Shown one piece after another: positions 23,697-42,957 of a stretch of DNA of 64,000 nucleotides. The stretch is from the NCBI GenBank assembly GCA_022730015.1, contig DZBU01000001.1, positions 1,307 to 65,306 on the forward strand. The letters run 5' to 3'. The translations under genes and the position numbers were made by a program. Under the pieces are notes generated by a model. That model was given only the letters and a program-made list of their open reading frames with translations. It was not told the DNA's origin and made no database searches. The stretch is from Candidatus Elulimicrobium sp. GTDB taxonomy: Bacteria > Patescibacteriota > Minisyncoccia > Phycocordibacterales > UBA918. The first letter of the stretch is position 1. Each line of letters opens with the position of its first letter.

Positions 23697-24644
23697 ATGG
23701 TTAAAATCCTGCGTAATCTCCTGATGATTGTTCTTCTAATGCCAGTGCTTTTTGTGAGCCTTGGTGTCACAGAAGTATTTGCCGGTTTCGGAATTACGCC
23801 TCCTTATGTTAGTAATACTAGCCTGACTAGAAATTCTACTTACGAACAGCAAGTCCTTCTAGTTCGTAGTGAAACTAACATTTCGCAGAAAGCGGAAATT
23901 ACTATTGATGCACCTGAGATACAAGATTGGATTCAAATTGTTGAAGGTGATGTCATCAAGATGCCTCGAGGTGAACAAAAGGTCCCAATGACCGTCCGTA
24001 TCACGGTACCTGAGGATGCTGAATTCAAGGATTATAAAGGAGCTATCCGTATCAGAACACTTCCTGATGACGATCAGGTTGCGCCTGGTGCAGTTAGTAT
24101 TTCTCTTGGTGCTCTGGTCGATATTGATCTGTCAGTCATTGATCGAAAGATCTTTGATTTTAGTGTGCGTAAGATCTCAGCTGCTGACCTCAATGAAGGA
24201 CATAAGCTTTTCTGGTTGTTCTTCCCTGGAAAGATCAATTTCGATATGATGATTGAGAATACGGGTAACGTCGATATTGTTCCGAGTAAAGTAGAATTCC
24301 GTATCTTTGATCGAGCTGGGAAGGTGTTGCTCGAAGAAACAAAGAATATTGGTAAAATCAAAAAGATTAAACCGTACGCCACGGAAACGGTGACGGCAGA
24401 ACTCCCAACCCGTTTACCCGCAGGTAGTTATGTGGCACGTTACCGAGTCTTCAACGGTGAGGATGTCAAACATGAAGGTGATATTAGTTTAAATATTCTT
24501 GCGGCGGGTACATTAGAGACTGCTAATTTCGGTTTTGCTGGACTCTCAATTGCTCATAAGGTATCAGTCTTGCTGCCTGTGTTTGCTCTTATCATTGCTG
24601 CAATCTATATCTGGCACATGCGTCGTCGATCATCAAGAAGGTAG
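23697..24644 (+). CDS. DUF916-like cell-surface protein: signal peptide, ~270-aa ectodomain, C-terminal TM helix and a short basic tail.
   Basis: N-terminus MVKILRNLLMIVLLMPVLFVSLGVTEVFA. The ectodomain starts 'GFGITPPYV...' in the same pattern as the 38900 and 39894 proteins. C-terminus VSVLLPVFALIIAAIYIWHMRRRSSRR. Confidence 0.65.
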   Translation: MVKILRNLLMIVLLMPVLFVSLGVTEVFAGFGITPPYVSNTSLTRNSTYEQQVLLVRSETNISQKAEITIDAPEIQDWIQIVEGDVIKMPRGEQKVPMTVRITVPEDAEFKDYKGAIRIRTLPDDDQVAPGAVSISLGALVDIDLSVIDRKIFDFSVRKISAADLNEGHKLFWLFFPGKINFDMMIENTGNVDIVPSKVEFRIFDRAGKVLLEETKNIGKIKKIKPYATETVTAELPTRLPAGSYVARYRVFNGEDVKHEGDISLNILAAGTLETANFGFAGLSIAHKVSVLLPVFALIIAAIYIWHMRRRSSRR

Positions 24645-26029: not shown

Positions 26030-27148
26030 ATGCACAGAGCGTCAAACACGTTCTCAGTGCTCCAAGCTACCGCAGCGATAGTTGCCATGGCCATCATTCT
26101 TTGGTCCCTTGGCATCTCATCGATCCGCTTCGCGGAAGCTGCAAATGTCACCTCATTTAGTGATACACTGTCGAGCTCAGCTCCGACAGTCGCATCAGAC
26201 CACACCATTACGTTTACTACTCCTACTGGAGTAACAAACGGACAGACGATCACTGTTGATTTCTCAAATGGTCCATTTGTAGTCGGTTCAGTTGATTTTA
26301 CTGATATCGACGTCGCAACAACCTCTGGTGAATTTACTCTAGCCGCTGACTGTGCAGGCACAGACATGGCTAGTGCAGCATTTGCTGGAACTCTTCTTAC
26401 CATCACGATGTGTGCTGGTGACGGAGGTCTTATTGTTGCAAATGGAACTACTACCATTCAGATTGGTTTGAATGCAGCTGGCGGTAACGCTCAGCTCACA
26501 AATCCAGCTATTGGTTCTTACGAAATCAATTTGACCGCTGGTGCGTCTGACTCAGGTTCGACTCGAGTAGCAATCATCAGTACAGTTAACGTCACTGCTT
26601 CTGTTGATACCCTCTTTACCTTCTCGGTAACTGGTGTCGCAGGAAACCAAACAGTGAACGGAACTACTACTGGAGCTACTACTACAGCAACACTCATTCC
26701 ATTTGGAGTGCTTGATGCTGGCGTAGCTAGTACTGCTGCTCAAGATCTTTCCATTGTCACAAACGCACGAAATGGTTTCGTCGTTACTGTGACTGCAGAC
26801 GGGCAGCTCGATTCATCAACCGGTGCTGACATTGATGGTTTCCGTAATGGAAACTACGCTGCAACACCAGTTGCGTGGGAAGGACCAAGTTCTGCAGTTG
26901 GCTCAGAAGAGACGTATGGTCACTGGGGTCTAACCTCAGACGATACTGACCACTTCGCAGCCACACAGACCTATGTGTCAGCCTCAACCACACCGGTTGA
27001 AGTGTTTACACACTCGGGTCCGACAGATGGAACAACTACCGGCCAGGGTACTACCCGCGTCGGATACACCGTACAAATCGGCTCGCTTCAAGAAGCAGCT
27101 GATGACTACACTGCTACGCTGACATACGTAGCAACGCCAGTTTTTTAA
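26030..27148 (+). CDS. Secreted protein with a WxL-like C-terminal module. The N-terminus resembles a SipW-cognate/TasA-type signal ('...IRFAEA|ANVTSFSDTLSSS').
   Basis: The signal has n/h/c regions. 'IVTNARNGFVVTVTADGQL', 'HWGLTSDD', and the C-terminus 'DDYTATLTYVATPVF' is comparable to 'AGDYQTSIVYMSIPVF' of the 33372 protein. Confidence 0.7.
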   Translation: MHRASNTFSVLQATAAIVAMAIILWSLGISSIRFAEAANVTSFSDTLSSSAPTVASDHTITFTTPTGVTNGQTITVDFSNGPFVVGSVDFTDIDVATTSGEFTLAADCAGTDMASAAFAGTLLTITMCAGDGGLIVANGTTTIQIGLNAAGGNAQLTNPAIGSYEINLTAGASDSGSTRVAIISTVNVTASVDTLFTFSVTGVAGNQTVNGTTTGATTTATLIPFGVLDAGVASTAAQDLSIVTNARNGFVVTVTADGQLDSSTGADIDGFRNGNYAATPVAWEGPSSAVGSEETYGHWGLTSDDTDHFAATQTYVSASTTPVEVFTHSGPTDGTTTGQGTTRVGYTVQIGSLQEAADDYTATLTYVATPVF

Positions 27149-28310: not shown

Positions 28311-28319
28311 AAAATCATT

Positions 28320-30080: not shown

Positions 30081-30086
30081 ATCATT

Positions 30087-30773: not shown

Positions 30774-30778
30774 TCGCC

Positions 30779-31522
30779 ATGGACACGATCCGTCGTCATA
30801 TTCAATCGTATACAAAGGCTAGGACGGGGAGTGCCACTGTTCATTTTTTATACCCCACTTTTTTCATGACGGCGATCATCTTTGCCATCGCGGTCACGAC
30901 TGGAAATGATGTCTCATATGTTCGCCTCGAAACTTCGGCGGCTACCGTTGAAGCTGGTAGCCGCTTCACTGTTGATGTGTATGCGTACGCTCATGTTCCG
31001 GTAAATGCCGTTGACATAACTTTACGCTTTGACTCCGCCGCGGTTGAGGTGCTAGAGGTTGATCGTGGACAGTCAGTGTTAACTATTTGGACAGAAGATC
31101 CAGTGATCGAAAAAGATAGGGTTATTCTCCGTGGGGGCACTTTTAGACGAGGGTTTATTAAAGAACATAAGATTGCCTCTATCGATCTAAAAGCAAAACA
31201 AACTGGTCAAAGTGACTTTAAAGCAACGGATGTCATGCTACTCGCGGGTGATGGAGCTGGTACCCCTGTCTCAGTGGCTGAAGCTCTCGATTCAGCGGTT
31301 AGCTTGTATATCTATGATGAAAATACTAGTCCCGAGAGTATCGGGGTGGATGTAAACGTCAAGATCCTTACTGATCTTGATGGTGACGGGAAGGTTACGC
31401 TTAAAGATATCAGCGCCTTCATGTCCTCATGGCATACAAAAGATAAAATGTATGATTTTAATGGCGATGGACGAATGAGTTTTCGTGATTTTTCGATAAT
31501 TTTAGCTACTTTCTTTTTTTAG
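30779..31522 (+). CDS. Membrane-anchored protein carrying both a cohesin-like module and a C-terminal dockerin-like pair (adaptor-type).
   Basis: 'TVDVYAYAHVPVNAVDITLRFDSAAVEVLEVDRGQSVLTIWTEDP'. Dockerin repeats 'DLDGDGKVTLKDISAFMSSW' and 'DFNGDGRMSFRDFSIILATF'. Confidence 0.75.
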   Translation: MDTIRRHIQSYTKARTGSATVHFLYPTFFMTAIIFAIAVTTGNDVSYVRLETSAATVEAGSRFTVDVYAYAHVPVNAVDITLRFDSAAVEVLEVDRGQSVLTIWTEDPVIEKDRVILRGGTFRRGFIKEHKIASIDLKAKQTGQSDFKATDVMLLAGDGAGTPVSVAEALDSAVSLYIYDENTSPESIGVDVNVKILTDLDGDGKVTLKDISAFMSSWHTKDKMYDFNGDGRMSFRDFSIILATFFF

Positions 31523-31635
31523 AGACTAACTCCTGTTGATAGTTTTACTCAAAAACCGTTTGGTCACCTGTTATTATTAGTTTGTGGTGTGCCTCGCCAC
31601 AACAACGTACAACGTAGAGCGTATTCATTCTTGTA

Positions 31636-33360
31636 ATGCGCTCGCAAAAACATTTTGGTACAAATCGGGGGAGCCACCATGCGTGGTTGTATTCTCTTGT
31701 GTTTAAAGGAAGATTCTCAGCGTTTGCTGTGGCTTTTTTGTTTTTGTCTTTTTTGATACAACCATTCCACCAAGCACTGGCCAACGAAGCGATTGAAGAA
31801 GTAGAAACTGAAGCTGTTTTGCCTGAAGAAGTTGCCGAGCAACTACCAAGTGTTGTTATTGAAGGAGAGACAGAGGAATTGACGACAGTTGATGAACTAA
31901 TAGAAGGGCAATCAGATTTAAATATTGAGGAGTCTGCGCCCGAGAGTATAGAGCAAGAGTTTTCTGTTGACCCTGTAATCAATGATGAATCTGCTGCTTC
32001 ACCAAACACGGGGACGAGCAATGATGGTGCGGAAATAATCGTGAATGAACAGCTTTCTGAACCATCTGTAATTTCTAAAGAAGAACAGCTTCCTGATGTT
32101 GTAACTACTGAAGCAAGTGAGTCAGCTGGTGGAGATTCCGGTTTAGATATCAGCGCAGAAGAGCAAGTGTCGAGCTCAAATATTGAAGATGACGATACCC
32201 CTTCAACATCCAATGAGCTAATCGACGAAAAAGCTATCGAAGCCGGAGTCAATGACCTGGTTGGTAGTGTGGTTAATGAAGTGGTTACGCTGACGAGGCA
32301 AATGGTAACTGAAGAGAATTTCTATCAGTTTAGTCGGCAGTCGTGTGTGGCAGTTGGTGACGGTACCTTTCACTGTACTTCTAAGGAGCGCGCTACGTTA
32401 GACCCAGATAGCGCTGTCTATGCCGATCGTGATGAGGCAGGAGATATGGAAATATACATGCGAACCTCAAAAGGCGATATTAAGCAGCTTTCTGATAATG
32501 ACTACGATGATACTGCTCCAGATATGGACCTCGCTTCTATGCGGGCAGTGTGGCAACGATTGGTTGACGGTCGTTATCAAATTATTTCGTATGATCTTGA
32601 GGAACGAAAAGAGACACAGCTTACATTTTCTCGTACCAACAGCATGGAGCCAAAAGTGGCAAAGGAGGGGGTGGTGTGGCAGGCGTGGGATGGTAATGAT
32701 TGGGAAATAATGTTTTTCGATGGTCAGGTCACTGATCAGATCACTGATAATGAAATACAAGATGTAACACCCGTTATCGAAGATGGCTACGTGCTATGGA
32801 GTGTCCTTGGAGGAGAAGCGTCAGAAGCTAGGGTCTACTCAATAGAAAGCGGAGAGCTCATGACCATTACTGGACATGAAGGTGGTGCTGTAGCAAACCC
32901 GCGCTTTGTGCTTGTGTACGATACTAAGTTCGATAATGGTGATGTGATCACGCAGGGTTTTGATCCAGTGACTGGTTTGGCGACACCGCTCTCATCAAAG
33001 CCCGCTGAGCTTCCGTTCAATATTCCAGAACCAGACCCAGTAGGTGAGATTAGAGCGTTGATACAAAATAAATCAACGCAAAAAGATAAAGAGGTGATAA
33101 CCGTACCGGTGACGACCGATGGAGGTGATTTAAATCTTGCCAGTACGAGCGTCACCACCACTGATACCCTCGTGCTTAGTGGTACAACTGATCTTGGTGA
33201 TGAGACGGCGATACTTTATACAGAGCCAGAACCAGATTTTGAACTGACTGAATATGACTTGGTGATCACTAAAGAGGCTAGTTCAACTAACTCTGTATTG
33301 AATCGACAATTTTATCTAGATATCGGAGCAGTTGAAAGTGCCTCAAGTACACAGCGCTAA
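31636..33360 (+). CDS. Secreted acidic (D/E/S-rich) protein with a C-terminal beta-propeller-like region. The likely true start is TTG/GTG near 31690-31705, giving the signal ...FSAFAVAFLFLSFLIQPFHQALA|NE.
   Basis: There is no internal Met after the tracked start. The N-terminal hydrophobic segment is followed by ~180 aa of acidic low complexity. Then 'VVWQAWDGNDWEIMFFDG', 'YVLWSVLGG' and 'RFVLVYD' type blade-like repeats. Confidence 0.6.
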   Translation: MRSQKHFGTNRGSHHAWLYSLVFKGRFSAFAVAFLFLSFLIQPFHQALANEAIEEVETEAVLPEEVAEQLPSVVIEGETEELTTVDELIEGQSDLNIEESAPESIEQEFSVDPVINDESAASPNTGTSNDGAEIIVNEQLSEPSVISKEEQLPDVVTTEASESAGGDSGLDISAEEQVSSSNIEDDDTPSTSNELIDEKAIEAGVNDLVGSVVNEVVTLTRQMVTEENFYQFSRQSCVAVGDGTFHCTSKERATLDPDSAVYADRDEAGDMEIYMRTSKGDIKQLSDNDYDDTAPDMDLASMRAVWQRLVDGRYQIISYDLEERKETQLTFSRTNSMEPKVAKEGVVWQAWDGNDWEIMFFDGQVTDQITDNEIQDVTPVIEDGYVLWSVLGGEASEARVYSIESGELMTITGHEGGAVANPRFVLVYDTKFDNGDVITQGFDPVTGLATPLSSKPAELPFNIPEPDPVGEIRALIQNKSTQKDKEVITVPVTTDGGDLNLASTSVTTTDTLVLSGTTDLGDETAILYTEPEPDFELTEYDLVITKEASSTNSVLNRQFYLDIGAVESASSTQR

Positions 33361-33371
33361 CATAGGTTTTT

Positions 33372-36300
33372 ATGGCGAGCTCACGTAAAATCAAGGAACC
33401 TATGACTTGGAGTAAGCGACAGCGAGATCGTTTGCTTTCGCCAGTGGCGGGGTTTATGATCGCGCTCCTTGCCACTCAGATGCTGCATGAGCTACTACCG
33501 ACACTTGTTCCACCGCTCGTACGCACTGTTGAAGCAGCGACTGCAACCATCGATCCAAATGGCGATATTGGTACTAATACCGGCACCCGTGTCACCTGTA
33601 CCGGCACGGTCTATTTTGAATGTCTTAATGATGCCGTACGTGATCCGTCAACTCCTAGCACAGCAGGTGATTATGTTGAGTATGCTGGCGGCAATCAGAC
33701 GAACTCGGACATGACATCGGTAACAAATGTTGCCACTGCTACGGCAATAGCCGTGAAGACGTACCATCAGGAAACGGGTACTAACATGACTCTGTCTGTT
33801 TCCTTGGTGAACGCAGCCGGTACGGTGATCGCTGGGCCGACAAGCGTCACTAATCGTGCTGTCACGCAGTGGGACACTATCACCTTCTCTGGTTTAACCT
33901 TAAATCAGGCAACGCTCGATGGTCTGTGGGTGCGCCAAACCTGTACACGCTCGGGTGGTAGCTCGGCCAACCGCTGTCGATCATTTGCCATGTACGCTGA
34001 TGTTACCTACGATCCGGTCATTAATGTAACCGTAAGCTCATTAGGAACTCAGCAAGATCTCGGTATCGCCACTTCTTCTGCTTATGTCGGAGGTAGCTTT
34101 GCCATTATTGAAAATACCTCTAGCCGCAGTATCACTTCGGTCACAGTCGCCGAACAGGGAACAGTTGATGCTCAAAATAGTTTGGACAACATAAAGCTCT
34201 ACTATGATTTAGACACTTCTAGTCCATATAACTGCTCGAGTGAATCATACGCCGGAACTGAGACGCAGTATGGAACTACTGACACTGATGGTTTTTCTAG
34301 TTCAAACGGCACCTCAGTGTTTACGGGCTCGGTGACCATCAGTACGACCCAGGCAATGTGTGTGTATGTCGTACTCGATGTTCTCAGCACGGCTACTGCA
34401 GGGGAGACCTTGGAAGTACAGATCACTGATCCGACTCTAGATGTGGTGGGAAGTGGTTCGCCGGTCATTAGTCCAGCGACAGCTGTGCTCCTTCCTGGGA
34501 CAACGACTCTGCGTAAGCCACTGCTGACGCAGGAGAACTATCACTGGCGAAATGATGACGGTAATGAAACCGCTGCTAGCTCAGCCACCGGAGGCAGTGA
34601 GAATACTTCGTACGCTACTTTTCCCAAAGCAGTCACTAAACGACTGCGCGTTGCGGTTTCCAATGAGGGAAATGCTGATTCAGCTGCCTCCCAATTTAGG
34701 CTTGAGTACGCGCAGAAAGTGACGACCTGTAGCGCGGCGACCGGCTGGACTGATGTCGGCGCGAGTACTGATGATTTTGATATGTCGCCAACTGGCAATA
34801 TTACTGACGGTGATAATTCAACAGATATCTCCAATGCCATTGGCGGTGTGACCAACCCTAACAGTAGTCTCTTGAGTTCAAACGGTGGTCTTCGTGATAC
34901 CAACTCGCAGACTGGTTCACTGACCTTGACGAGTACGCAGTTTGTCGAACTTGAGTATGCAATCATCGCAAGTAGTGGTCTTACCGACGGAACGACGTAC
35001 TGCTTCCGTGTGACCAATGCCGGTACGCCACTCCCGGCGTACACCAACTACCCAGAGGCCACCATTGCGGCAGATGTGCTGGTCGACTCGATCGGTTCGC
35101 AGACCACCACGGTCACCATTCCTACTACTGGTCAGTATGCTGGCGGAGCCTTCCGGGTCACCGACCTCACTGCGGGCGCTGGGACGATATCAAGTATTGC
35201 CATCACCGCCAGTGGGAGCATCGATATTCAAAATGATGTAGCAACTATCACGCTTCGTTACGACCTCGACACGAGTAATCCCTATACCTGTGACGATGTT
35301 TCGTATGCCAATACTGACGCGTCGTTTGGCAGTACGGTTGCAAATTTTAATGGTAGTAACAAAGCGACCTTCACCGGTTCAGTCAGTAATTCACCGACAC
35401 AAACGGTGTGTCTCTATGTCGAATACAACGTGGGCACGGGCGCCAGTAACGGTGAGTTGCTCGACCTTCGTATTGTTGATCCATCGAGTGAAGTGGTGAT
35501 CAGCGGTTCATCTGTGTCGCCTAATACTCCGGTCGATATCGGGGATGTGACAACTTTTGCGGCGCCGTATGTGGAGCAAGTTAACTATCACTGGCGTAAC
35601 AACGATGGTTCGGAAACAACCGCTAGCTCTGCCACGGGTGGGACACAGAACACTCCGCTCACTGAGGTGGCCAAGAATTCTACGTACCGACTGCGTTTTG
35701 CAGTGGCCAATACTGGTCTCACGACAGCACCAGAAACGCGCTATCAGCTCGAATGGGCGCAAAAGGTGAGCACGTGTAGCGCGGTGCCGGATATCGACTG
35801 GGAGCGTGCTGATACAATACTTGATGCCTGGCAAATGTCACCGACTGGTAACCTTACTGAAGGAAACGACACGACTGACATTGTAGAGAGTACGGGAGGG
35901 GTGGGGAACCCAGCTGCAACGTTTCTGGTTAATAATAACGGTGTCAACGATACGACAGACCTAACTGCCTCTTCGACATTGCCAGCTGACAATTACCTCG
36001 ACTTAGAATATTCGATCAGCGCCACCGATGATTCAGTGCAGGGGGCGACCTACTGTTTCCGAGTGAGTGCAGCTGGTAGTGCGTTAGTAAATTATACGAA
36101 TTATCCTGAGGTGAGTATCAAACTCGATACCGACTTCAAGGTACAACGAGGAGTATCGACGATTACTGGTGACACACTGACTATCACTGCTGGAGTTGAG
36201 TACGAGGCGCCACTTACCTCGAGTAGCTCGTTCATTCGTATCACCAACACGCAACTTACCGGTGCTGGGCCGAACACTGGCAACACCAACAGCAACGCCG

Positions 36301-38894
36301 ATGACGTGACGGTGTACATCACCAACCCGTCCAACATTTTGAGTAGCATTACTTTCGCACGCGGTATTGGTGCAGTGAGTAATACTCGCGTTTCTTGGGA
36401 GATCATCGAGTACACCGGTGTAGCTGGCGGTGAGAATGAGATCATTGTGCGGCAACAGGAGGCGATCTCGTACGGAGCAGCGAATACAGCAGTTAGTGGT
36501 ACAGTGACCAACACCATTGTGGATGATACCGATGTGGCCGTGTTCATCACTGGCCAGTTCAACGCTGATACAGGTCGTAACGCCTATGGTCAGGGATTTT
36601 CAATTGCCGCTTGGAACACTACCAATAATCAAGTAGACCTTACCCGTGGGCTTTCTGGTTCAGTTTCTAGTGTCAGCTATGCGCTCGTTGAGTTTACTGG
36701 AACCAACTGGAAGATCCAGCGAATTTCACATACGTACACAGCGGCTGGTGCAGTGGAGACCAGTGCCATGACTGCAGTGAATAGTCTCTCTCGTACCTTC
36801 ACACACACGCAAAAACTAACACCTTCGAACAACCACGCTGACATTGGTCACGAGGTCTGGCTCTCGGGTATTGGCCAGGTGTCATTCTTACTCGATGCGG
36901 CAGCGGCCACTCCAAGTGGACATACCTCAGTCGCATGGGTCATTGAGAATACCCAAACGCAAGGGTTGATCATGAAGGTGTCGCGTGCCAACAGCTCGCT
37001 TGCAGCGGGTGCCACAGCCCCCGAGACAAATAATCTCAATATCGGTGTCACTATTGCTGACCTTTCTACTGCTTCGCTATTTGTGAATAACCGCAGCGAT
37101 GGTGCGACCCGTTCCTTTCCAGAACCGATCCTGGGAGCACGATTGATTTCTACAACGCAGTACGAGCTCTGGCGAAGTGACACGAGTTCAAATCTTAACT
37201 ATCGTACCGAAGTGGTCGAGTGGCCAACCGCGGCACGAAAACTTGAACAAAACTATTTCCGCTTGTACGAGGATAACAATGCTCTCACTCCAACTGTTGC
37301 TTGGCCCGCGAGTGTGGGTACTCTCGGTGAAAATACGGAAATGACTGCCGATGACAACCCGCTGGCGCTTGGTGATACTGTGCGTATTAGAATGACCATT
37401 TCTGTCACAAGTTCAGTGATGCCATCTGCGCTGGATGCATTCCGTCTTGAGTATGCTGAACGAGTGACCACTTGTTCAGCAATTTCCACTTGGAGTGAAC
37501 TCGGCGAAGTTGGTAGTACAACCGCGTCATGGCGCGGAACCAATAACGCTCCGGTTGACGGTACGGCACTTTCGACTGAGCCTCCAACCGGTGGTGATCT
37601 TTTGATCTCGATCGCGACTGTGGCGGGTACGTACGAAGAAGAAAATAACTCTGCTCTCAACCCGTACATTGCATTCCCAGGAGATGAGGTCGAATACGAC
37701 TGGGTGGTGCAACATAACGGTGCCAAGGATAAAACTGCATACTGCTTCCGCATGGTGGAATCAACCGGAACTACGTTTGAAAACTATAATTTCTATCCAG
37801 TCATTAGAACGGTTGGCTATGAGCCGATCCTCAAAACGTGGCGTTGGTATGGAGATGAAAATAATCTCACACCAACCTCAGCCCTAGCGGCGGAAAACGT
37901 GGCGCCGATCGACATTCCAAACGAGGACATCATCAAGCTGCGGCTCACTCTGCGGGAAAGTTCTGGTGCAGCTGGAAATAACAATAAGTTTATCGTCCAG
38001 TACTCCGAATATGCAGATTTTTCAGTTGGAGTGCACACCCTCACCAGTACGAGCACCTGTCTTGAAAATTCATTGTGGTGTTACGCTGATGGAGCGGGAG
38101 TAGATAATCAGCTTATCAATGCTGCGGTTATTTCAGATGCCGCTACATGCACGGCTGGTGTTGGTGTTGGTTGTGGTACGCACAATGAAGGTACGAGTAC
38201 TGCCACTGCAACTTTTGATCAGGTGGCGTTTACTACCACGGAGTATGAATTTACTTTGCAACACGCGGGTGCACGTGCCAGTGCGGTGTACTACTTCCGA
38301 CTCTACGATAGTACTACGGCAGAGCTAGTCGGACTTGGAGCAACCTCTACGTACCCTTCACTTGTGACAGAGGGTGCACAACTTGTATCGACGCTAGCGG
38401 GTGTAGATGCAGGAACTGCTGTGGCGGGGATCATTGCTGATGCTACTACTACTCCAACTTCTATTGGTTTCGGCTCGTTGCCGTTTAATAATTCCTATGA
38501 AGCCGTGCAACGCATTACTGTGACTACCAACGCCACGGAGGGCTATCAGTTATTGATGTATGCAACACAGCAGTTGACAAATACATATGGCGATGTCGTT
38601 CCTCCTGTCACGAGTACCAATGCCGCGCCAGCTGGTTGGTCAAGTGGATGTGCGGCACCAGCGATCGGCTGTTTTGGCTATCACACCACAGATGCGACCT
38701 TAGAGGGCGGGTCCGGTCGATTTGCGCCGATTGATTCTTATGCTGCACTTGATACTGCGGCACAGGAGATAATGTACAGTTCGATTCCAGCTACTGACAC
38801 TCATGACATCGTGTATCGAGTACTTGTGACGGAACAACAACCAGCCGGAGATTATCAGACGAGTATTGTCTATATGTCCATCCCCGTTTTTTAA
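33372..38894 (+). CDS. Large (1,840 aa) secreted surface protein built from about four copies of an unnamed ~180-aa module and ending in a WxL-like C-terminal module.
   Basis: N-terminal TM/signal VAGFMIALLATQMLHELLPTLVPPL. Module starts ENYHWRNDDGNE, VNYHWRNNDGSE, NYFRLYEDNN and TWRWYGDENN, each containing 'RLR..V.N.G', 'LEYA.[KR]V.TCSA' and 'YCFR[VM]'. C-terminus '...GWSSGCAAPAIGC...DYQTSIVYMSIPVF'. Confidence 0.85.
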   Translation: MASSRKIKEPMTWSKRQRDRLLSPVAGFMIALLATQMLHELLPTLVPPLVRTVEAATATIDPNGDIGTNTGTRVTCTGTVYFECLNDAVRDPSTPSTAGDYVEYAGGNQTNSDMTSVTNVATATAIAVKTYHQETGTNMTLSVSLVNAAGTVIAGPTSVTNRAVTQWDTITFSGLTLNQATLDGLWVRQTCTRSGGSSANRCRSFAMYADVTYDPVINVTVSSLGTQQDLGIATSSAYVGGSFAIIENTSSRSITSVTVAEQGTVDAQNSLDNIKLYYDLDTSSPYNCSSESYAGTETQYGTTDTDGFSSSNGTSVFTGSVTISTTQAMCVYVVLDVLSTATAGETLEVQITDPTLDVVGSGSPVISPATAVLLPGTTTLRKPLLTQENYHWRNDDGNETAASSATGGSENTSYATFPKAVTKRLRVAVSNEGNADSAASQFRLEYAQKVTTCSAATGWTDVGASTDDFDMSPTGNITDGDNSTDISNAIGGVTNPNSSLLSSNGGLRDTNSQTGSLTLTSTQFVELEYAIIASSGLTDGTTYCFRVTNAGTPLPAYTNYPEATIAADVLVDSIGSQTTTVTIPTTGQYAGGAFRVTDLTAGAGTISSIAITASGSIDIQNDVATITLRYDLDTSNPYTCDDVSYANTDASFGSTVANFNGSNKATFTGSVSNSPTQTVCLYVEYNVGTGASNGELLDLRIVDPSSEVVISGSSVSPNTPVDIGDVTTFAAPYVEQVNYHWRNNDGSETTASSATGGTQNTPLTEVAKNSTYRLRFAVANTGLTTAPETRYQLEWAQKVSTCSAVPDIDWERADTILDAWQMSPTGNLTEGNDTTDIVESTGGVGNPAATFLVNNNGVNDTTDLTASSTLPADNYLDLEYSISATDDSVQGATYCFRVSAAGSALVNYTNYPEVSIKLDTDFKVQRGVSTITGDTLTITAGVEYEAPLTSSSSFIRITNTQLTGAGPNTGNTNSNADDVTVYITNPSNILSSITFARGIGAVSNTRVSWEIIEYTGVAGGENEIIVRQQEAISYGAANTAVSGTVTNTIVDDTDVAVFITGQFNADTGRNAYGQGFSIAAWNTTNNQVDLTRGLSGSVSSVSYALVEFTGTNWKIQRISHTYTAAGAVETSAMTAVNSLSRTFTHTQKLTPSNNHADIGHEVWLSGIGQVSFLLDAAAATPSGHTSVAWVIENTQTQGLIMKVSRANSSLAAGATAPETNNLNIGVTIADLSTASLFVNNRSDGATRSFPEPILGARLISTTQYELWRSDTSSNLNYRTEVVEWPTAARKLEQNYFRLYEDNNALTPTVAWPASVGTLGENTEMTADDNPLALGDTVRIRMTISVTSSVMPSALDAFRLEYAERVTTCSAISTWSELGEVGSTTASWRGTNNAPVDGTALSTEPPTGGDLLISIATVAGTYEEENNSALNPYIAFPGDEVEYDWVVQHNGAKDKTAYCFRMVESTGTTFENYNFYPVIRTVGYEPILKTWRWYGDENNLTPTSALAAENVAPIDIPNEDIIKLRLTLRESSGAAGNNNKFIVQYSEYADFSVGVHTLTSTSTCLENSLWCYADGAGVDNQLINAAVISDAATCTAGVGVGCGTHNEGTSTATATFDQVAFTTTEYEFTLQHAGARASAVYYFRLYDSTTAELVGLGATSTYPSLVTEGAQLVSTLAGVDAGTAVAGIIADATTTPTSIGFGSLPFNNSYEAVQRITVTTNATEGYQLLMYATQQLTNTYGDVVPPVTSTNAAPAGWSSGCAAPAIGCFGYHTTDATLEGGSGRFAPIDSYAALDTAAQEIMYSSIPATDTHDIVYRVLVTEQQPAGDYQTSIVYMSIPVF

Positions 38895-38899
38895 ATGGT

Positions 38900-39925
38900 A
38901 TGATAAAAAATATGCCTAAGAGAGTCCTAATTTTAGTTGCCCTTCTGCCACTTTTTTTGTTTACGCCAGTTTCTGTTTTGGCTGGGTCAGAGATATCTAT
39001 CAGACCACTACTTATTGATGAGGTGCTTGCTCCACGTGGGGTGGTCGAGAATACTGTCACGATCAAAAGCATATATGATTATCGTAAGGCGGTGGTATTT
39101 GCGACAGTCAATGAAATTACCCTAGATACTGCCGGTGAAATAAAAGAATTCGTCTCACCAGTAATGACTGACCGCACCAATACAGTAACCAGCTGGATCG
39201 AGGTCACTCGGGGGCGAATTGAGATTCCCGCTGGTGAGACTGCTGAGATCCCGCTAACCATCCGCGTACACCCATACGCAGAACCAGGGGAGTACCATGT
39301 TTTTGTTGGCTTTGTGGAAGCAGCAAATAGACCCAGCGCCGAAGCTAGTGCACTCGCGGGGGAAGCTAAAGGTGTCATTGTCAAAGTGGTGGTCGCTGAT
39401 GAGCGTGTCGACAGCATGCGCATTTCAAGTTTTGTTGTTGATCGCTTTGTCATCGACGATGCTGATCGAACGATCGCTGTCGAAGTTGAAAACAATGGTG
39501 ATATTGCCTCGGTACCGACTGGAGAGATTATTTTTTACGATTCACGAGGGATTGAGCTCACTTCAGTTCCAGTAAACGAAGCGGCCACGAGCGTCGCTCC
39601 AAGTGAAAAGATTACCTTGCAGACTACCATTCCGCTTCAAAATAACCTTGGAAAATATAAAGCGAACGTGTTCTTAAAATATGGGAAAGACCAGCAATCC
39701 TCACTGTACGACACAGCCTATTTTTATTTAATGCCGATTCACTTACTTTTGCTTGTATTTGGTGGTACGCTGGTCATTGCTATATTGATCGCACTTTTAT
39801 TCCGTCGTGTTTTTTTTCATCACGAGGAAGACCCGGAGTTTCAGGAGGTACCAATGTATGTTCGTGATGGTAATGATTCACAACCCAAAGACCATGATAT
39901 CGATCTCAAAAACATTTCTCAGTAG
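38900..39925 (+). CDS. DUF916-like cell-surface protein (signal peptide, ectodomain, C-terminal TM, charged tail).
   Basis: 'MIKNMPKRVLILVALLPLFLFTPVSVLAGSEISIRPLLIDEVLAPRG...' follows the DUF916 N-terminal pattern. TM LLLVFGGTLVIAILIALLF. It lies 5 nt after the 33372 gene. Confidence 0.7.
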   Translation: MIKNMPKRVLILVALLPLFLFTPVSVLAGSEISIRPLLIDEVLAPRGVVENTVTIKSIYDYRKAVVFATVNEITLDTAGEIKEFVSPVMTDRTNTVTSWIEVTRGRIEIPAGETAEIPLTIRVHPYAEPGEYHVFVGFVEAANRPSAEASALAGEAKGVIVKVVVADERVDSMRISSFVVDRFVIDDADRTIAVEVENNGDIASVPTGEIIFYDSRGIELTSVPVNEAATSVAPSEKITLQTTIPLQNNLGKYKANVFLKYGKDQQSSLYDTAYFYLMPIHLLLLVFGGTLVIAILIALLFRRVFFHHEEDPEFQEVPMYVRDGNDSQPKDHDIDLKNISQ

Positions 39926-41522
39926 CATCGCGTTCTTGTTTCTGCTTGTCATATTTCCGACAGCGGTACATGCACAAACCGAGACATTGACACTCAGTGT
40001 ATCGCCGACGCTATTTGAGATGACTGCCAATCCAGAGCAAGAATGGCTTAGTACTATTCGTGTTATCAATGCCAATCCCTACGATATAACCATTTACACT
40101 GATGTGGTTAATTTTGCACCACAGGGGGAGTCGGGGCAGGGTAAATTCTTACCAGTTCTTGACGAAGAAGCGGGTGGACAAACATTTGCTGAGTGGGTAA
40201 CACTTGATCAAACTGAATTGACGATACCAGCTGAACAAACCGCAGAGATACCGTTTCGGATCAAAGTCCCTGATAATGCACCACCTGGAGGACACTTTGG
40301 AGCAATTCTTATTGGGACAAAATCACTTGATACTGGATCGGGACAGACCGTAGTAGAAACATCACAGGTTGTTACGTCATTGGTCTTTCTTCGAGTAACA
40401 GGAGACATCATTGAGGATGGTGTTATTCGTGAATTCCGTAGCACGAAACTGATTGCAGAAAGACCAGAGATGGATTTTGAGTTACGTTTCCAAAACAAAG
40501 GAAACGTACATATATTGCCGCAAGGGGAGATCAAGATTTTTAATATGTGGGGAGAAGAGCGCGGTCTCATTCCAGTCAATCGACAGACATTGTTTGGCAA
40601 TGTTTTGCCGGATAGCATTCGAAAATATTCGTTCAGTTGGTCTGGTGAGTGGTCTTTGGCTGACATTGGTAGATATACTGTCGTAGCAACTTTGGCGTAC
40701 GGAGAGGGAAGTCGGCAGTTTGCTAGTGCCGAAACCGCCTTTTGGGTCATACCATGGAAGATTACCTTGACTGTACTTGCGATCCTTTTTGCATTCATAA
40801 CGTTCTTGGTTTGGTCGATCAAGTTATACATCAGAAAAATGCTGAAGATAGCAGGTGTATCAGCAGATTCACAACAAGTAAACCGCGTCGACTATCGTGT
40901 TAAGAAAAACAGAAGCGTGTCAATGGTAGCTCCCATCGAGGAGGGAATACTTGATCTGCGGGCTCGTTTCCAAGACTCAGACTCGCTCAGAGAAAAACTC
41001 TCGAGTACATTGGCTTTTGTTTCAAAATATCGAATATTCTTCTCGTTGCTGATCCTGGTAGTGCTATTTGTGATCGCAATTATTTGGTATATCACCGCCG
41101 CCTCGACAAGTGACCGACCGTACGAAGTCGTTATTGAGGGTCTCGAGCAAGATGTCACAATTTCTTCTGAACAGCTCCAATACGAGGCGCGTAAGGAAGA
41201 AGTTGCAGCCGACAATCCTGATCTATCAGCAAAAGAATTTCCTCCTATTAAGATCGTGAACCAGAGTGGTGTTCCAGGACTAGCGGCTGACTTGCGAATA
41301 AAGTTGGAAGCGGCTGGATATCCAGTGGCAGAACTTTCTACAGATTTGGAACGAATTGAAGCAAATACTGTTGTTGTGTATGCGCCAGAGTATGACACGC
41401 AAGCACTGGAACTGAGTGCTCAAGTATATGGTGCTCTGCTTTCTTCTTACGCCGAAGCTTCAGGTACCGAAACTCCTATCATCATATATGTCGGCAAAGA
41501 TCTCGAAAATGCGGTACAATAG
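39894..41522 (+). CDS. Second, larger DUF916-like membrane protein (signal peptide, DUF916-like ectodomain, TM, ~250-aa C-terminal domain).
   Basis: Preferred start ATG 39894 (MISISKTFLSSIAFLFLLVIFPTAVHA|QTETLTLSVSPTLFEMTANPEQEWLSTIRVINANPYDITI), which overlaps the preceding gene by 32 nt in another frame. Mid-protein TM ITLTVLAILFAFITFLVWSI. Confidence 0.65.
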   Translation: MISISKTFLSSIAFLFLLVIFPTAVHAQTETLTLSVSPTLFEMTANPEQEWLSTIRVINANPYDITIYTDVVNFAPQGESGQGKFLPVLDEEAGGQTFAEWVTLDQTELTIPAEQTAEIPFRIKVPDNAPPGGHFGAILIGTKSLDTGSGQTVVETSQVVTSLVFLRVTGDIIEDGVIREFRSTKLIAERPEMDFELRFQNKGNVHILPQGEIKIFNMWGEERGLIPVNRQTLFGNVLPDSIRKYSFSWSGEWSLADIGRYTVVATLAYGEGSRQFASAETAFWVIPWKITLTVLAILFAFITFLVWSIKLYIRKMLKIAGVSADSQQVNRVDYRVKKNRSVSMVAPIEEGILDLRARFQDSDSLREKLSSTLAFVSKYRIFFSLLILVVLFVIAIIWYITAASTSDRPYEVVIEGLEQDVTISSEQLQYEARKEEVAADNPDLSAKEFPPIKIVNQSGVPGLAADLRIKLEAAGYPVAELSTDLERIEANTVVVYAPEYDTQALELSAQVYGALLSSYAEASGTETPIIIYVGKDLENAVQ

Positions 41523-41553
41523 CTGAACGATTACTCATTTAACACATAAAACT

Positions 41554-42036
41554 ATGAGTCAAAGATCTATTATTCTTATCGTCAGCTTTTTTGTGCTGAT
41601 CGTGGTAGGTATGTTCATGTACGCTAATCTAAAGAAATCTGAGCTGGAACAAGCTGCTGTTATTCCACCTGTAATTGAAGAAACCCAAGAGATTCCTTAC
41701 GCAGACATCACTCGAATTGACGCAAAGCACTATTACATTGACGGTGTGCACACTCTAGTCGGTGAACTTGCTTTTCCAACCCCGTGTGACCTGCTCCAGG
41801 CTGATGCGAGAGTGATGGAATCATATCCAGAGCAAGTCGTTGTCGATTTTACCGTGATTAACACCGCTGATATGTGCGCACAGGTAATCACAAATCAACG
41901 TTTTCGAGTTGATTTCTCTGCTGCAAGCCAGGCGAGTATAAGCGCCCGTTTTATGGGTCGTGACATAGAACTTAACCTTATTCCAGCGGGGCCAGAAGAA
42001 CGACCAGAGGATTTTGAATTATTTATAAAAGGCTAG
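41554..42036 (+). CDS. Small membrane-anchored protein of unknown function.
   Basis: N-terminal TM IILIVSFFVLIVVGMFMYA. It contains two Cys and has no family I recognise. Confidence 0.5.
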   Translation: MSQRSIILIVSFFVLIVVGMFMYANLKKSELEQAAVIPPVIEETQEIPYADITRIDAKHYYIDGVHTLVGELAFPTPCDLLQADARVMESYPEQVVVDFTVINTADMCAQVITNQRFRVDFSAASQASISARFMGRDIELNLIPAGPEERPEDFELFIKG

Positions 42037-42041
42037 ATCCA

Positions 42042-42611
42042 ATGAAGCAGTTCTCTCGAGACAGGGTCGCGACATTCATTGTAATTGGAGTAATTCTCCT
42101 CGTTGCTTTGGTGTACACACTGTTTGTGATCAGTCAAAACAAACGAGAACAAGCTAATGACAATCCTGCCAACCAGGCTTTGCAGGTGGCTGCTGATGAA
42201 GTGCCCTACACTGACCTTGCTGGGAATCCGCTGTCCTTAGATGAGTATGTAGGAAAGGTGTTGGTTGTTAATTCATGGGCAAGCTGGAGTCCAGATTCTG
42301 CTACTGAGCTAAAAATCTTTGCCGCACTTCGCTCAAAATATGACCTTGATGAAGTTGTGATACTGGCGATCAATCGCGCGGAACCCCAAACTACTGCTGA
42401 GCGCTACCTGCGTACCTTAGCGGTGTCTGATCAGGTGCAGCTAGTTCTTGATCCGACTGATCGATACTATCGATCAATTGGCGGCTTCGCGATGCCAGAA
42501 ACGATCATTTACGATCGAAAGGGAGGTATCGTTCACCATCAGCGCGGCCCGCTAACCGCAGATCAAGCGTCCGTCTATATTGACCAAGCACTGTCCAAAC
42601 AAGATGAGTAG
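42042..42611 (+). CDS. Membrane-anchored TlpA/ResA-like thioredoxin-fold protein whose CxxC active site is replaced by SxxS (WASWSPDS). It is probably redox-inactive.
   Basis: N-terminal TM. 'KVLVVNSWASWSPDSATELKIF...VVILAINRAEP' matches the TlpA-family 'V.VNFWA.WC.PC..E.P' region except that both Cys positions are Ser. Confidence 0.7.
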   Translation: MKQFSRDRVATFIVIGVILLVALVYTLFVISQNKREQANDNPANQALQVAADEVPYTDLAGNPLSLDEYVGKVLVVNSWASWSPDSATELKIFAALRSKYDLDEVVILAINRAEPQTTAERYLRTLAVSDQVQLVLDPTDRYYRSIGGFAMPETIIYDRKGGIVHHQRGPLTADQASVYIDQALSKQDE

Positions 42612-42617
42612 GGTGTG

Positions 42618-42645
42618 CTTTACAGACAGTTAACTCATGATATAA
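42618..42645 (+). promoter_or_regulatory. Sigma70-type promoter: -35 TTTACA, 16-nt spacer, extended -10 TGaTATAAT.
   Basis: Read directly: tttaca 42618-42623, tgatataat 42637-42645. Confidence 0.5.
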
Positions 42646-42736
42646 TTTGCACGGATTGGCAAGAGTCCGTTCGCGACCATCCACCTTTACGTGGAGCCTC
42701 TGTCGAAAGAGGTTTCAAAGTCGCAAGTGAGAAGGT

Positions 42737-42892
42737 ATGTTCAAAGCCATCGGATTCTTGATAGTTCTTTATGGACTGTCACATTTCTTTTCCTCAGCAT
42801 TTATAGCTCTCGATAGTGCTGCGAGCGCATCATTTAAAACACTCGAGACTGCGGCAATCGTGTCGCAAATGCAACTGCAGGAGAAATTGTAG
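42737..42892 (+). CDS. Candidate 51-aa small hydrophobic protein (MFKAIGFLIVLYGLSHFFSSAFIALDS...), not in the ORF track because it is under 60 aa.
   Basis: ATG at 42737 follows GAGAAGG. One predicted TM helix. It is flanked by the promoter at 42618-42645 and a hairpin plus T-run at 42903-42935. Confidence 0.3.
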   Translation: MFKAIGFLIVLYGLSHFFSSAFIALDSAASASFKTLETAAIVSQMQLQEKL

Positions 42893-42902
42893 ATATAGAG
42901 GA

Positions 42903-42935
42903 TCATGCCTGTGCATGGTCCTTTTTGTATCCATA
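42903..42935 (+). terminator. Hairpin ggatcatgcc-tgt-gcatggtcc followed by tttttg.
   Basis: Read directly. The stem has one mismatch. Confidence 0.4.
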
Positions 42936-42957
42936 GGGAATACTGTATACTAGCAAT

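What the first reader, a model, noticed from the sequence alone, without database searches (positions are those of the whole stretch)
38900..41522. DUF916-like single-pass membrane proteins sit immediately downstream of the WxL-like giants, recreating Csc-type cell-surface-complex synteny
Three proteins have the DUF916 architecture: 23697..24644, 38900..39925 and 39894..41522. Each has a signal peptide, an ectodomain beginning '(F/I)S(V/I).P...E..A.P', and a C-terminal TM with a basic or charged tail. Each cluster follows a WxL-like protein by ≤100 nt. This is the order of the Lactobacillales/Enterococcus Csc/Elr loci (WxL proteins + DUF916 CscA). I believe this is a Csc-like surface complex transplanted into a CPR-type genome and enlarged to 1.8- and 5.5-kaa subunits. 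I am not aware of such a locus having been described.
Basis: partly seen in the sequence, partly recalled or inferred. Interest (0 to 1): 0.8.

Follow-up and report, generated by a model that had tools for sequence, protein, structure and literature searches.

The report
Membrane-anchored pilus chaperone/anchor pair in CPR
Two neighbouring genes of a tiny uncultured (CPR) bacterium encode membrane-anchored, two-domain proteins distantly related to the DUF916/WxLIP proteins of lactic acid bacteria. They sit directly behind a giant surface protein that ends in a pilin-type domain, so the locus looks like a variant of the recently described CPR 'Pam' pilus system, not a transplanted Csc/WxL complex.

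Summary
The three genes exist and are paralogues. Each has a signal peptide, two Ig-like beta-sandwich domains and a TM helix. B (39894-41522) is not single-pass: it has a second TM and an external LytR_C domain.

The DUF916 likeness holds, but remotely. B reaches Pfam PF06030 by 0.1 bit, and 18 of 120 B homologues carry that hit. The best solved-structure matches to the model of A are E. faecium WxLIP chains. DUF3324 is not detected.

The "WxL-like" partner is not supported: PF13731 hits 0 of 84 family members. The last ~150 residues of the 1840-aa giant match NCBIfam CPR_Pam_pilin_C (41 of 42 members, all below cut-off), and the model resembles donor-strand-exchange pilins.

The pairing is conserved: giant-A-B in 20 of 20 species loci, and a second C-terminal domain followed by C in 69 of 69 metagenome loci.

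Best reading: a Paceibacteria variant of the Pam pilus/adhesin system (2026 preprint). A and B would be membrane-anchored chaperones or anchors that complete the pilin domain of the giant by strand complementation.

Rating: new variant of a known kind. The possible bridge between the WxLIP/WxL and Pam systems is the interesting part.

The parts
38900..39925 (+). A: 341-aa protein with a signal peptide, two tandem Ig-like beta-sandwich domains (residues ~32-165 and ~173-277), a TM helix (274-307) and a 35-aa cytoplasmic tail. A public gene call starts at the ATG at 38912 (337 aa).
   Evidence: 390 homologues; the named ones are CPR; AF2 model, pLDDT 84; best PDB fold matches are WxLIP 9i25_C/9i1y at E 6e-12; then RbmA at 1e-9; CsuC and DraB chaperones at ~5e-7.
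39125..39199 (+). A residues 76-100 (DTAGEIKEFVSPVMTDRTNTVTSWI): a hairpin loop in domain 1. It is the most conserved stretch of the family and the least confidently modelled part of the ectodomain. Proposed donor or binding element (inferred).
   Evidence: the blocks at residues 81-100 have mean majority-residue frequency 0.89-0.91, the highest in the protein; pLDDT is 60-74 there, with residues 88-91 below 50; the loop is present in B and absent in C. Analogy: the WxLIP hairpin that orders on binding WxL (PMC10599100).
39894..41522 (+). B: 542-aa paralogue of A. It has a signal peptide, two Ig-like domains, TM1, a cytoplasmic loop, TM2 and an extracellular LytR_C domain. It overlaps the end of A by 32 nt.
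40005..40310 (+). B residues 38-139: match to Pfam PF06030 (WxLIP_PGBD, formerly DUF916).
   Evidence: E 3.7e-6, 27.4 bits against a gathering cut-off of 27.3, profile positions 16-118 of 121; 18 of 120 B homologues carry a precomputed PF06030 hit, and JGI names one of them 'DUF916/LytR'.
40737..41111 (+). B TM1 (residues 282-313), cytoplasmic loop and TM2 (residues 372-406).
   Evidence: hydropathy. The charge distribution seen fits this topology.
41247..41501 (+). B residues 452-536: LytR_C domain (PF13399), predicted to lie outside the membrane.
   Evidence: 2.2e-8, 35.3 bits against a cut-off of 22.2. Present in nearly all B homologues.
33372..38894 (+). G2: 1840-aa surface protein with internal repeats, ending in a pilin-type C-terminal domain.
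   Evidence: orthologues with full-length ORFs of 1842-2147 aa sit directly upstream of A in every locus that includes upstream DNA.
38454..38894 (+). C-terminal domain of G2 (type-1 CTD, last ~147 aa): a distant member of the Pam pilin C-terminal domain, a truncated-Ig pilin-like fold. The protein ends on the last strand (..AGDYQTSIVYMSIPVF*).
38382..38402 (+). Strand LVSTLAG just before the CTD of G2. It is conserved as (P)STLTFxIxG in the small pilins and is a candidate 'linker' donor strand as in Pam pilins (inferred).
   Evidence: strand at residues 30-36 of the modelled segment, in the 10-residue block (31-40) with mean pLDDT 96; conservation. Preprint description of the linker strand.
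26030..27148 (+). p26030: 372-aa small pilin-like protein with a signal peptide, an N-terminal domain and the same type-1 CTD as G2.
   Evidence: an HMM built without this protein scores it at 82 bits (2.3e-26); homologues occur as three tandem small pilins next to a large CTD-bearing protein in L026.
23697..24644 (+). C: 315-aa third paralogue with a signal peptide, two Ig-like domains, a TM (281-309) and a basic tail. It lacks the hairpin loop of A and B.
   Evidence: (A3 HMM, 2.5e-6).
21746..23602 (+). p21746: 618-aa protein with an N-terminal TM or signal anchor and a type-2 C-terminal domain (22913-23602). It lies directly upstream of C.
   Evidence: E 1e-21 to the C-terminus of G1; 69 of 69 loci keep the pair.
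934..17424 (+). G1: 5496-aa giant with the type-2 C-terminal domain (16735-17424).
31636..33360 (+). p31636: 574-aa conserved gene ending 11 nt upstream of G2. It is part of the tightly packed block 31636-42611.
   Evidence: (proteins of 559-617 aa at the same place in relatives).
41554..42611 (+). Two conserved downstream genes: a 160-aa protein with an N-terminal TM (41554-42036), and a 189-aa thioredoxin-fold (Redoxin/AhpC-TSA) protein with a hydrophobic N-terminal segment (42042-42611). The gaps before them are 31 nt and 5 nt.
   Evidence: TM at residues 1-27 of the 160-aa protein; the best promoter-like site in the region comes only after 42611.

Best explanation
Genes A and B encode Sec-exported, membrane-anchored proteins with two Ig-like domains. 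They are the Paceibacteria counterpart of the membrane-anchored PapD-like and RbmA-like proteins PamC, PamD and PamR of the CPR Pam pilus system. At the fold level, and marginally at the sequence level, they also belong with DUF916/WxLIP proteins.

Shown: A and B lie in one tightly packed, conserved block behind G2. G2 is a 1840-aa surface protein whose last ~150 residues are a Pam-pilin-type truncated-Ig domain. The same domain ends the small pilin-like protein p26030.

Inferred: after export, the open groove of that pilin domain is completed by a beta-strand from A and/or B. The most likely donor is the invariant, disordered hairpin at A residues ~78-100. This would chaperone the subunit, or tether the adhesin or filament permanently to the membrane. 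B would add a hold on the cell wall through its external LytR_C domain. G2 and p26030 may also join to each other through their conserved pre-CTD strand.

The p21746-C pair is a second, more divergent module of the same design. Its C-terminal domain is of unknown fold, and its anchor protein lacks the hairpin.
For: - Architecture and paralogy of A, B and C.
- DUF916 link: PF06030 in B at the gathering threshold, and in 18 of 120 B homologues.
- Fold of A: the WxLIP chains 9i25_C/9i1y rank first (E 6e-12), RbmA next (1e-9), and the CsuC and DraB chaperones are also found (5e-7).
- G2 C-terminal domain: NF058581 CPR_Pam_pilin_C covers the whole model, with 41 of 42 family members hitting. The AF2 model (pLDDT 88) is closest to donor-strand-exchange subunits: TLP-1b, CsuA/B, AbpA, Fim/Pap and TasA.
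- The same domain occurs in p26030, and in three tandem small pilins next to a large CTD-bearing protein in L026.
- Conserved order: giant-A-B in 20 of 20 species loci with upstream DNA.
- Tight spacing: gaps of 5-31 nt, an A/B overlap of 32 nt, and no strong promoter-like site until 42619.
- The most conserved segment of A is a low-confidence loop. This matches the WxLIP hairpin that orders on binding WxL (PMC10599100).
- The Pam preprint describes exactly this parts list: pilins with an N-terminal domain, a linker and a truncated-Ig CTD; TM-anchored two-domain chaperones; and an RbmA-like TM-anchored terminator.
Against: - The NF058581 scores are all below NCBI's 55-bit cut-off (the window copy scores 23.6 bits).
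- No NCBIfam model hit A, B or C, or their families. I could not obtain the PamC, PamD or PamR sequences for a direct comparison.
- No complex was modelled, so strand donation by A or B is inference only.
- TM-scores to WxLIP are low (0.31-0.41), and generic tandem-Ig proteins follow closely in the hit list.
- The relatives that keep the synteny are close (35-69% identity for A; 60-85% for C) and also keep the flanking housekeeping genes. Conserved order alone is therefore weak evidence of a functional link.
- Subunits of 1840 and 5496 aa are far larger than any described Pam pilin.
- The type-2 C-terminal domain shows no detectable relation to the type-1 domain (hhalign probability 0.3%).
Confidence: 0.55

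Rival explanations
1. One reading: a true Csc/Elr-type WxL surface complex. A, B and C would be WxLIP (CscA) orthologues that hold WxL-domain proteins non-covalently at the surface. Nothing polymerises, and the system was acquired from Firmicutes and then enlarged.
For: PF06030 hit in B. WxLIP chains are the best fold match to A. The architecture of signal peptide, two Ig domains and a TM helix is the same (PMC10599100). The gene order, with a large protein carrying a special C-terminal domain followed by the anchor, is conserved. The WxLIP-WxL interaction is itself predicted to work by strand completion of an incomplete sandwich, so the mechanism would be nearly the same.
Against: PF13731 (WxL) hits 0 of 84 members of the two C-terminal domain families and none of the window proteins. 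No Trp-x-Leu pair is present. PF11797 (DUF3324) is absent. The NQIDKxxxYFDLK motif is absent. The WxL chain of 9i25 is not among the best fold matches of the G2 C-terminal domain. Profiles of A and B do not hit the WxLIP PDB chains. Every listed homologue that carries a name, and every titled related locus, is from CPR/Patescibacteria, which argues against recent transfer.
Confidence: 0.2
2. A, B and C are envelope proteins that do not interact with the giants. Examples would be Ig-like wall or S-layer-associated spacers, with B acting as a Cei/LytR_C-type envelope-integrity protein. The conserved neighbourhood would simply reflect the general collinearity of these small genomes.
For: The relatives examined also conserve the unrelated downstream genes for redoxin, an AI-2E transporter, TGT and UvrB. 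Several B homologues hit NCBIfam 'envelope integrity protein Cei' and AmaP weakly through their C-terminal halves. Tandem Ig folds are common, and many generic ones score well against the model of A.
Against: The same design, a C-terminal-domain protein followed by a TM-anchored two-Ig protein, occurs twice in the window with different C-terminal domain types. The spacing (5-nt gap, 32-nt overlap) suggests translational coupling. The most conserved part of A is an exposed disordered loop, which fits a protein-binding element better than a spacer. The G2 C-terminal domain belongs to a fold class that needs a complementing strand.
Confidence: 0.15
3. A and B are dedicated folding chaperones only. 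They would be released from G2 after export, and G2 would be anchored or polymerised by something else. Candidates are its own N-terminal hydrophobic segment, or the cohesin-dockerin proteins encoded upstream.
For: Fold matches of A to the CsuC and DraB periplasmic chaperones. The Pam model gives PamC and PamD a transient role. Cohesin- and dockerin-type domains occur at 24535-31522.
Against: Nothing here separates transient from permanent binding. The LytR_C domain of B, and the fact that the TM helix follows domain 2 without a linker, fit a fixed anchor at least as well.
Confidence: 0.1

Closest known systems
Pam pilus system of Ca. Mycosynbacter amalyticus (Saccharimonadia), preprint 10.64898/2026.03.03.709456: pilins PamA/B/E, tip PamT, TM-anchored chaperones PamC/D and the RbmA-like TM-anchored terminator PamR
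   Same: Both are in CPR bacteria. The pilin-type C-terminal truncated-Ig domain is recognised by the same NCBIfam model, NF058581. A conserved strand precedes the CTD. Small pilin paralogues of ~35-40 kDa exist (p26030 and the L026 trio). Neighbouring genes encode two-Ig-domain proteins with a C-terminal TM helix whose fold matches include RbmA and PapD-type chaperones. There is no usher and no outer membrane.
   Different: The class is different (Paceibacteria/Parcubacteria-type names; the preprint reports mainly Saccharimonadia and Microgenomatia). Scores are below the family cut-off. The CTD is fused to a 1840-aa protein. One anchor protein carries a second TM and a LytR_C domain. The anchor proteins score on DUF916, which the preprint does not mention. 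Homology of A and B to PamC, PamD and PamR is untested.
WxLIP / CscA (DUF916 PGBD + DUF3324 HBD + TM helix) of Enterococcus, Lactiplantibacillus and Listeria WxL clusters (PMC10599100; PDB 9i1y, 9i25)
   Same: The layout of signal peptide, two Ig-like domains and a TM helix is the same, and so is the size (A is 341 aa; WxLIPs are 337-365 aa). PF06030 matches B at threshold. WxLIP is the best fold match to A. A hairpin loop in domain 1 is disordered when the protein is modelled alone. The gene lies next to genes for large surface proteins that carry a special C-terminal domain.
   Different: Structure-based alignment shows 16% identity. There is no PF11797 hit, no NQIDKxxxYFDLK motif and no WxL (PF13731) partner. 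The phylum is different. B has an added TM and a LytR_C domain.
Chaperone-usher pili (PapD/FimC chaperones; Pap, Fim and Csu pilins; two-domain tip adhesins FimH and PapG)
   Different: The cell is a monoderm with no usher. The chaperone-like proteins are membrane-anchored. There is no sequence relation.
TLP-1a/b pond-water fibrils (CryoSeek, PMC11494351; PDB 9ikk) and TasA / archaeal bundling pili
   Different: 13% identity. The closest predicted structure for TLP-1 was a Flavobacteriales protein. These filaments are chaperone-free or use other factors.

Membership tests
WxLIP / CscA (DUF916-DUF3324-TMH) | N-terminal signal peptide | tested here: met
   Hydrophobic N-terminal segments followed by A-x-A-like sites in A, B and C. 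No dedicated signal-peptide predictor was available.
WxLIP / CscA (DUF916-DUF3324-TMH) | PGBD domain: match to Pfam PF06030 (DUF916) | tested here: inconclusive
   B scores 27.4 bits against a cut-off of 27.3 (E 3.7e-6), and 18 of 120 B homologues carry the hit. A and C have no hit at E<=1. None of the 120 listed A homologues has a precomputed PF06030 hit.
WxLIP / CscA (DUF916-DUF3324-TMH) | HBD domain: match to Pfam PF11797 (DUF3324) | tested here: not met
   No hit in A, B or C at E<=1, and none among the precomputed domains of 240 listed homologues. A second Ig-like domain is nevertheless present in the model.
WxLIP / CscA (DUF916-DUF3324-TMH) | C-terminal TM helix directly after the second domain | tested here: met
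   A 274-307, C 281-309, B 282-313. B continues with a second TM and a LytR_C domain.
WxLIP / CscA (DUF916-DUF3324-TMH) | Conserved N-terminal NQIDKxxxYFDLK motif (PMC10599100) | tested here: not met
   The mature N-termini read SEISIRPLLIDEVLAPRG (A), LSVSPTLFEMTANPEQ (B) and FGITPPYVSNTSL (C).
WxLIP / CscA (DUF916-DUF3324-TMH) | Fold like solved WxLIP (9i1y, 9i25) | tested here: met
   Foldseek ranks 1-3, E 6e-12 to 2e-11, 266-270 aligned columns, TM-score 0.31-0.41. The next match is RbmA at 1.3e-9. This was tested for A only.
WxLIP / CscA (DUF916-DUF3324-TMH) | Clustered with at least two WxL-domain (PF13731) proteins | tested here: not met
   No PF13731 hit in G1, G2, p21746 or p26030, nor in 84 members of their C-terminal domain families.
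WxL domain proteins (CscB/C) | C-terminal domain matching PF13731 with two Trp-x-Leu motifs | tested here: not met
   No profile hit. The positions that look analogous carry Tyr (GYQL, VYMS). The WxL chain of 9i25 is absent from the top fold matches.
CPR Pam pilus system | Pilin C-terminal truncated-Ig domain (NCBIfam NF058581 CPR_Pam_pilin_C) | tested here: inconclusive
   G2 C-terminus: E 4.6e-5, 23.6 bits, model positions 3-148 of 148, below the 55-bit cut-off. 41 of 42 family members hit at E<=0.01, best 3.6e-13. p26030 alone gives no direct hit but shares the domain with G2.
CPR Pam pilus system | Donor-strand-exchange pilin fold of the CTD | tested here: met
   [not shown]
CPR Pam pilus system | Operon-encoded two-Ig-domain chaperone or terminator proteins with a C-terminal TM helix (PamC, PamD, PamR) | tested here: met
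   This architecture is seen in A, B and C. Fold matches include RbmA (1.3e-9) and the CsuC and DraB chaperones (5e-7). The genes lie directly downstream of the CTD-bearing gene.
CPR Pam pilus system | Sequence or profile homology of A, B and C to PamC, PamD or PamR | not testable with these tools
   The M. amalyticus sequences could not be fetched. No NCBIfam model hit A, B or C, or their families.
CPR Pam pilus system | Assembly into extracellular filaments | not testable with these tools
   This needs microscopy or biochemistry.
LytR_C domain proteins | Match to PF13399 | tested here: met
   B residues 452-536, 35.3 bits against a cut-off of 22.2.

The most novel reading that the evidence does not exclude
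The Firmicutes Csc/WxL-WxLIP clusters and the CPR Pam pili could be two branches of one ancient monoderm surface-assembly system. In such a system a membrane-anchored two-Ig-domain protein (DUF916/WxLIP, equivalent to PamC/D/R) completes a truncated-Ig C-terminal domain (WxL, equivalent to the Pam pilin CTD) by strand donation. This Paceibacteria locus would be the bridging form. Its anchor protein scores on the DUF916 profile while its partner scores on the Pam pilin profile. The same module would also be used to mount multi-thousand-residue adhesins, including through a second, uncharacterised C-terminal domain found in 865 protein clusters.
Probability: 0.3. Interest if true: 0.75.

Novelty: new variant of a known kind. 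Interest (0 to 1): 0.55.

Why it matters
CPR bacteria are thought to live attached to host cells, and how they attach is largely unknown. If this reading is right, it has four consequences:
- The newly described Pam-type, chaperone-assisted strand-exchange system would extend into the large Paceibacteria class.
- The system would be used to mount giant adhesins, not only thin pili.
- The orphan DUF916/WxLIP family of Gram-positive bacteria would be tied to pilus chaperones. That would give both fields a shared, testable mechanism, namely strand completion by a membrane-anchored two-Ig protein.
- A widespread, unnamed C-terminal domain (865 clusters, in proteins of up to 7622 aa) would be flagged as a likely second handle of this kind.

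Tried and rejected
- Profiles of the A, B and G2-CTD families and of the small pilins were searched against all PDB sequences. They found no WxLIP, WxL or Pam chain at E<=10. The single B sequence also found nothing relevant.
- The afdb50 fold library was unavailable, so predicted WxL and DUF916 structures could not be compared.
- Pfam on G2, on the four C-terminal regions, and on 84 members of the two CTD families gave no WxL hit and no other informative family.
- NCBIfam on the A and B families gave only noise, plus weak Cei and AmaP hits to the C-terminal half of B.
- hhalign of the type-2 CTD against the type-1 CTD gave probability 0.3%. Only the last hairpin aligned, so I do not claim that the two are related.
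- The promoter and terminator scan was no better than shuffled sequence, so it only weakly supports a single operon.
- Literature searches linking WxL or DUF916 with CPR found nothing relevant.
- I considered recent horizontal transfer from Lactobacillales and rejected it. Identity to WxLIP is 16%, and all named homologues and titled loci are CPR/Patescibacteria.


Full report
**What is there**

The window comes from a CPR/Patescibacteria genome. Sources name homologues of the proteins as Candidatus Kaiserbacteria, Nomurabacteria, Parcubacteria or Paceibacteria.

The finding covers two genes:
- A (38900-39925, 341 aa).
- B (39894-41522, 542 aa), which overlaps the end of A by 32 nt.

A third gene, C (23697-24644, 315 aa), was named as similar.

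All three are paralogues:
- BLASTP gives A/B 3e-14 over about 300 residues, A/C 6e-5 and B/C 1e-5.
- The A-family and B-family HMMs cross-hit at 1e-19 to 1e-31 in every related locus.

An AlphaFold2 model of A was built from 41 homologues (pLDDT 84). It shows a signal peptide and two beta-sandwich domains (about residues 32-165 and 173-277). A TM helix starts immediately after the last strand. Hydropathy agrees for A and C.

After its first TM (282-313) come a basic loop of about 60 residues, a second TM (372-406) and a LytR_C domain (PF13399, 2.2e-8). That domain should lie outside the cell.

**Is it DUF916-like?**

Partly, and only remotely.
- B matches Pfam PF06030 (WxLIP_PGBD, formerly DUF916) over profile positions 16-118 of 121. 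The score is 27.4 bits against a gathering cut-off of 27.3.
- 18 of the 120 listed B homologues carry the same precomputed hit. JGI already names one of them 'DUF916/LytR'.
- A and C do not score on PF06030. Nothing scores on PF11797 (DUF3324).
- At the fold level, the three best PDB matches to the model of A are the E. faecium WxLIP chains 9i25_C and 9i1y (E 6e-12, 16% identity, 266 aligned columns).
- Next come RbmA (1.3e-9), PapD-like/ASH domains and, further down, the pilus chaperones CsuC and DraB (about 5e-7).
- Family profiles do not reach the WxLIP sequences in the PDB.
- The conserved NQIDKxxxYFDLK motif of WxLIPs (PMC10599100) is absent.

**Are the upstream giants WxL-like?**

No profile evidence supports this.
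- PF13731 hits none of the window proteins.
- It also hits none of 42 members of the G2 C-terminal domain family, and none of 42 members of the G1/p21746 C-terminal domain family, at E<=0.1.

Instead, the last ~147 residues of G2 match NCBIfam NF058581, 'CPR_Pam_pilin_C'.
- The match covers the whole model (E 4.6e-5, 23.6 bits, below the 55-bit cut-off).
- 41 of 42 family members hit it, with a best E-value of 3.6e-13.

The AF2 model of this domain (pLDDT 88) is closest to subunits that assemble by donor-strand exchange:
- Foldseek: CfaB and the TasA fibre.

The WxL chain of 9i25 is in neither top list.

The same domain ends a small protein, p26030 (26030-27148, 372 aa). An HMM built without p26030 scores it at 82 bits. 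In another metagenomic locus (L026), a large protein with this domain is followed by three tandem small pilin-like paralogues that also have it. A conserved strand, (P)STLTFxIxG, or LVSTLAG in G2, precedes the domain.

**The known system this resembles**

A 2026 preprint (10.64898/2026.03.03.709456) solved the Pam pili of the Saccharibacterium Ca. Mycosynbacter amalyticus. Its parts list is:
- A tip subunit, PamT.
- Two PapD/FimC-like chaperones (PamC, PamD) that unusually carry a C-terminal TM helix.
- An RbmA-like, TM-anchored terminator, PamR.

The window locus has the same parts list. The preprint does not mention DUF916, WxL, LytR or Paceibacteria. I found no paper linking DUF916 with CPR.

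**Conservation of the pairing**

- In every one of the 20 GTDB species-representative loci that include upstream DNA, the order is giant with the type-1 C-terminal domain, then A, then B. Gaps are very short or the genes overlap.
- For C, all 69 metagenome loci with at least 900 nt of upstream DNA have a protein of ~620-650 aa with the type-2 C-terminal domain ending just upstream.
- These relatives are fairly close: 35-69% identity for A and 60-85% for C. The relatives of A examined also keep the flanking housekeeping genes. Synteny alone is therefore only moderate evidence.
- In the window, the block 31636-42611 is tightly packed. The best promoter-like site lies just after it.

**Mechanism (inferred)**

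The most conserved part of A is residues 81-100, with majority-residue frequency about 0.9. This coincides with the least confident part of the modelled ectodomain (pLDDT 60-74, with residues 88-91 below 50). A conserved, exposed, unstructured hairpin of this kind is what WxLIP is predicted to use to complete the WxL sandwich.

B has the equivalent loop. C lacks it.

I therefore propose that A and/or B complete the open groove of the G2 and p26030 pilin domains after Sec export. They would act as a membrane-anchored chaperone and/or a terminal anchor. B would also be fixed to the wall by its LytR_C domain.

No complex was modelled, so this step is inference. Whether G2 is a tip-like adhesin, a filament subunit with a giant head, or a directly anchored fibre cannot be decided here.

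**The second module**

The C-terminal domain shared by G1 and p21746 (E 1e-21) is found in 865 representative protein clusters. In the hits listed it is nearly always at the extreme C-terminus, in proteins of up to 7622 residues. It has no Pfam or NCBIfam family and no detectable relation to the type-1 domain. Its strict pairing with C suggests a similar handle-and-anchor logic, but its fold was not determined.

**Verdict**

The DUF916-type anchors and the conserved pairing are supported. The WxL partners, the transplanted Csc complex and the claim that no such locus has been described are not.
- The locus is best filed as a new variant of the Pam-type strand-exchange pilus/adhesin system.
- The open and more interesting possibility is that it links that system to the WxLIP/WxL clusters of Firmicutes.

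Noticed in passing
window 16735-17424 and 22913-23602: G1 and p21746 share a ~220-aa C-terminal domain that ends in YWGIAVP...G.N.FT.V. A profile of it finds 865 representative clusters (654 at E<=1e-10). In the listed hits the domain is nearly always at the very C-terminus, in proteins of up to 7622 aa. No Pfam or NCBIfam family matches, so this is a widespread unnamed domain.
   Followed up: partly
window 24535-31522: A run of genes with cohesin-like and dockerin-like domains plus Big_13/Big_6 domains lies between the two modules: 24535-25752 (dockerin), 28320-30080 (cohesin), 30779-31522 (cohesin and dockerin) and 27264-28310 (related to the cohesin protein). This suggests a cohesin-dockerin surface scaffold in a CPR genome.
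   Followed up: no
window 19049-21642: A MacB-type ABC transporter (ATPase at 19049-20398; MacB_PCD/FtsX permease at 20428-21642) and a triple-FN3 protein (17452-19014) lie between giant G1 and p21746. Any role in export or processing of the surface proteins is unknown.
   Followed up: no
window 39840-39925: The cytoplasmic tail of A carries a strongly conserved motif (MYVRDG..P.P.DHDIDLKN). The ATG start of B lies inside the codons for its His-Asp pair (gacCATGat). Part of the tail's conservation may therefore reflect the overlapping start of B, i.e. translational coupling, and not a cytoplasmic partner.
   Followed up: partly
[not shown]
   Followed up: partly
L026 1-6984: A metagenomic contig carries a large protein with G2-like repeats and a type-1 CTD, then a 230-aa Cys-rich protein with an N-terminal TM, then three tandem small pilin-like genes (349, 391 and 335 aa). 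The pilin-like proteins share a conserved mature N-terminus (A-A-S-L-x-x-x-S-D-x-L-S-x-S...H-T-I-x-F-T) that p26030 also has. The contig ends before any chaperone-like gene could be seen.
   Followed up: partly
window 33372-38294 and 934-17424: G2 contains repeated modules of about 350 aa that end in Y(Y/C)FR(L/V/M) motifs. These are also found in G1 (BLASTP E 1.6e-27). The type-1 CTD has two nearly invariant cysteines (GC.....GCFGYH). A membrane-tethered redoxin (42042-42611) is conserved two genes downstream of B.
   Followed up: no
window 42619-42646: This is the only near-consensus sigma-70-like site in 30500-43200 (TTTACA, 16-nt spacer, TG, TATAAT; 11 of 12 positions). It lies just after the redoxin gene and before the AI-2E transporter gene, which marks a likely end of the transcription unit.
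   Followed up: no
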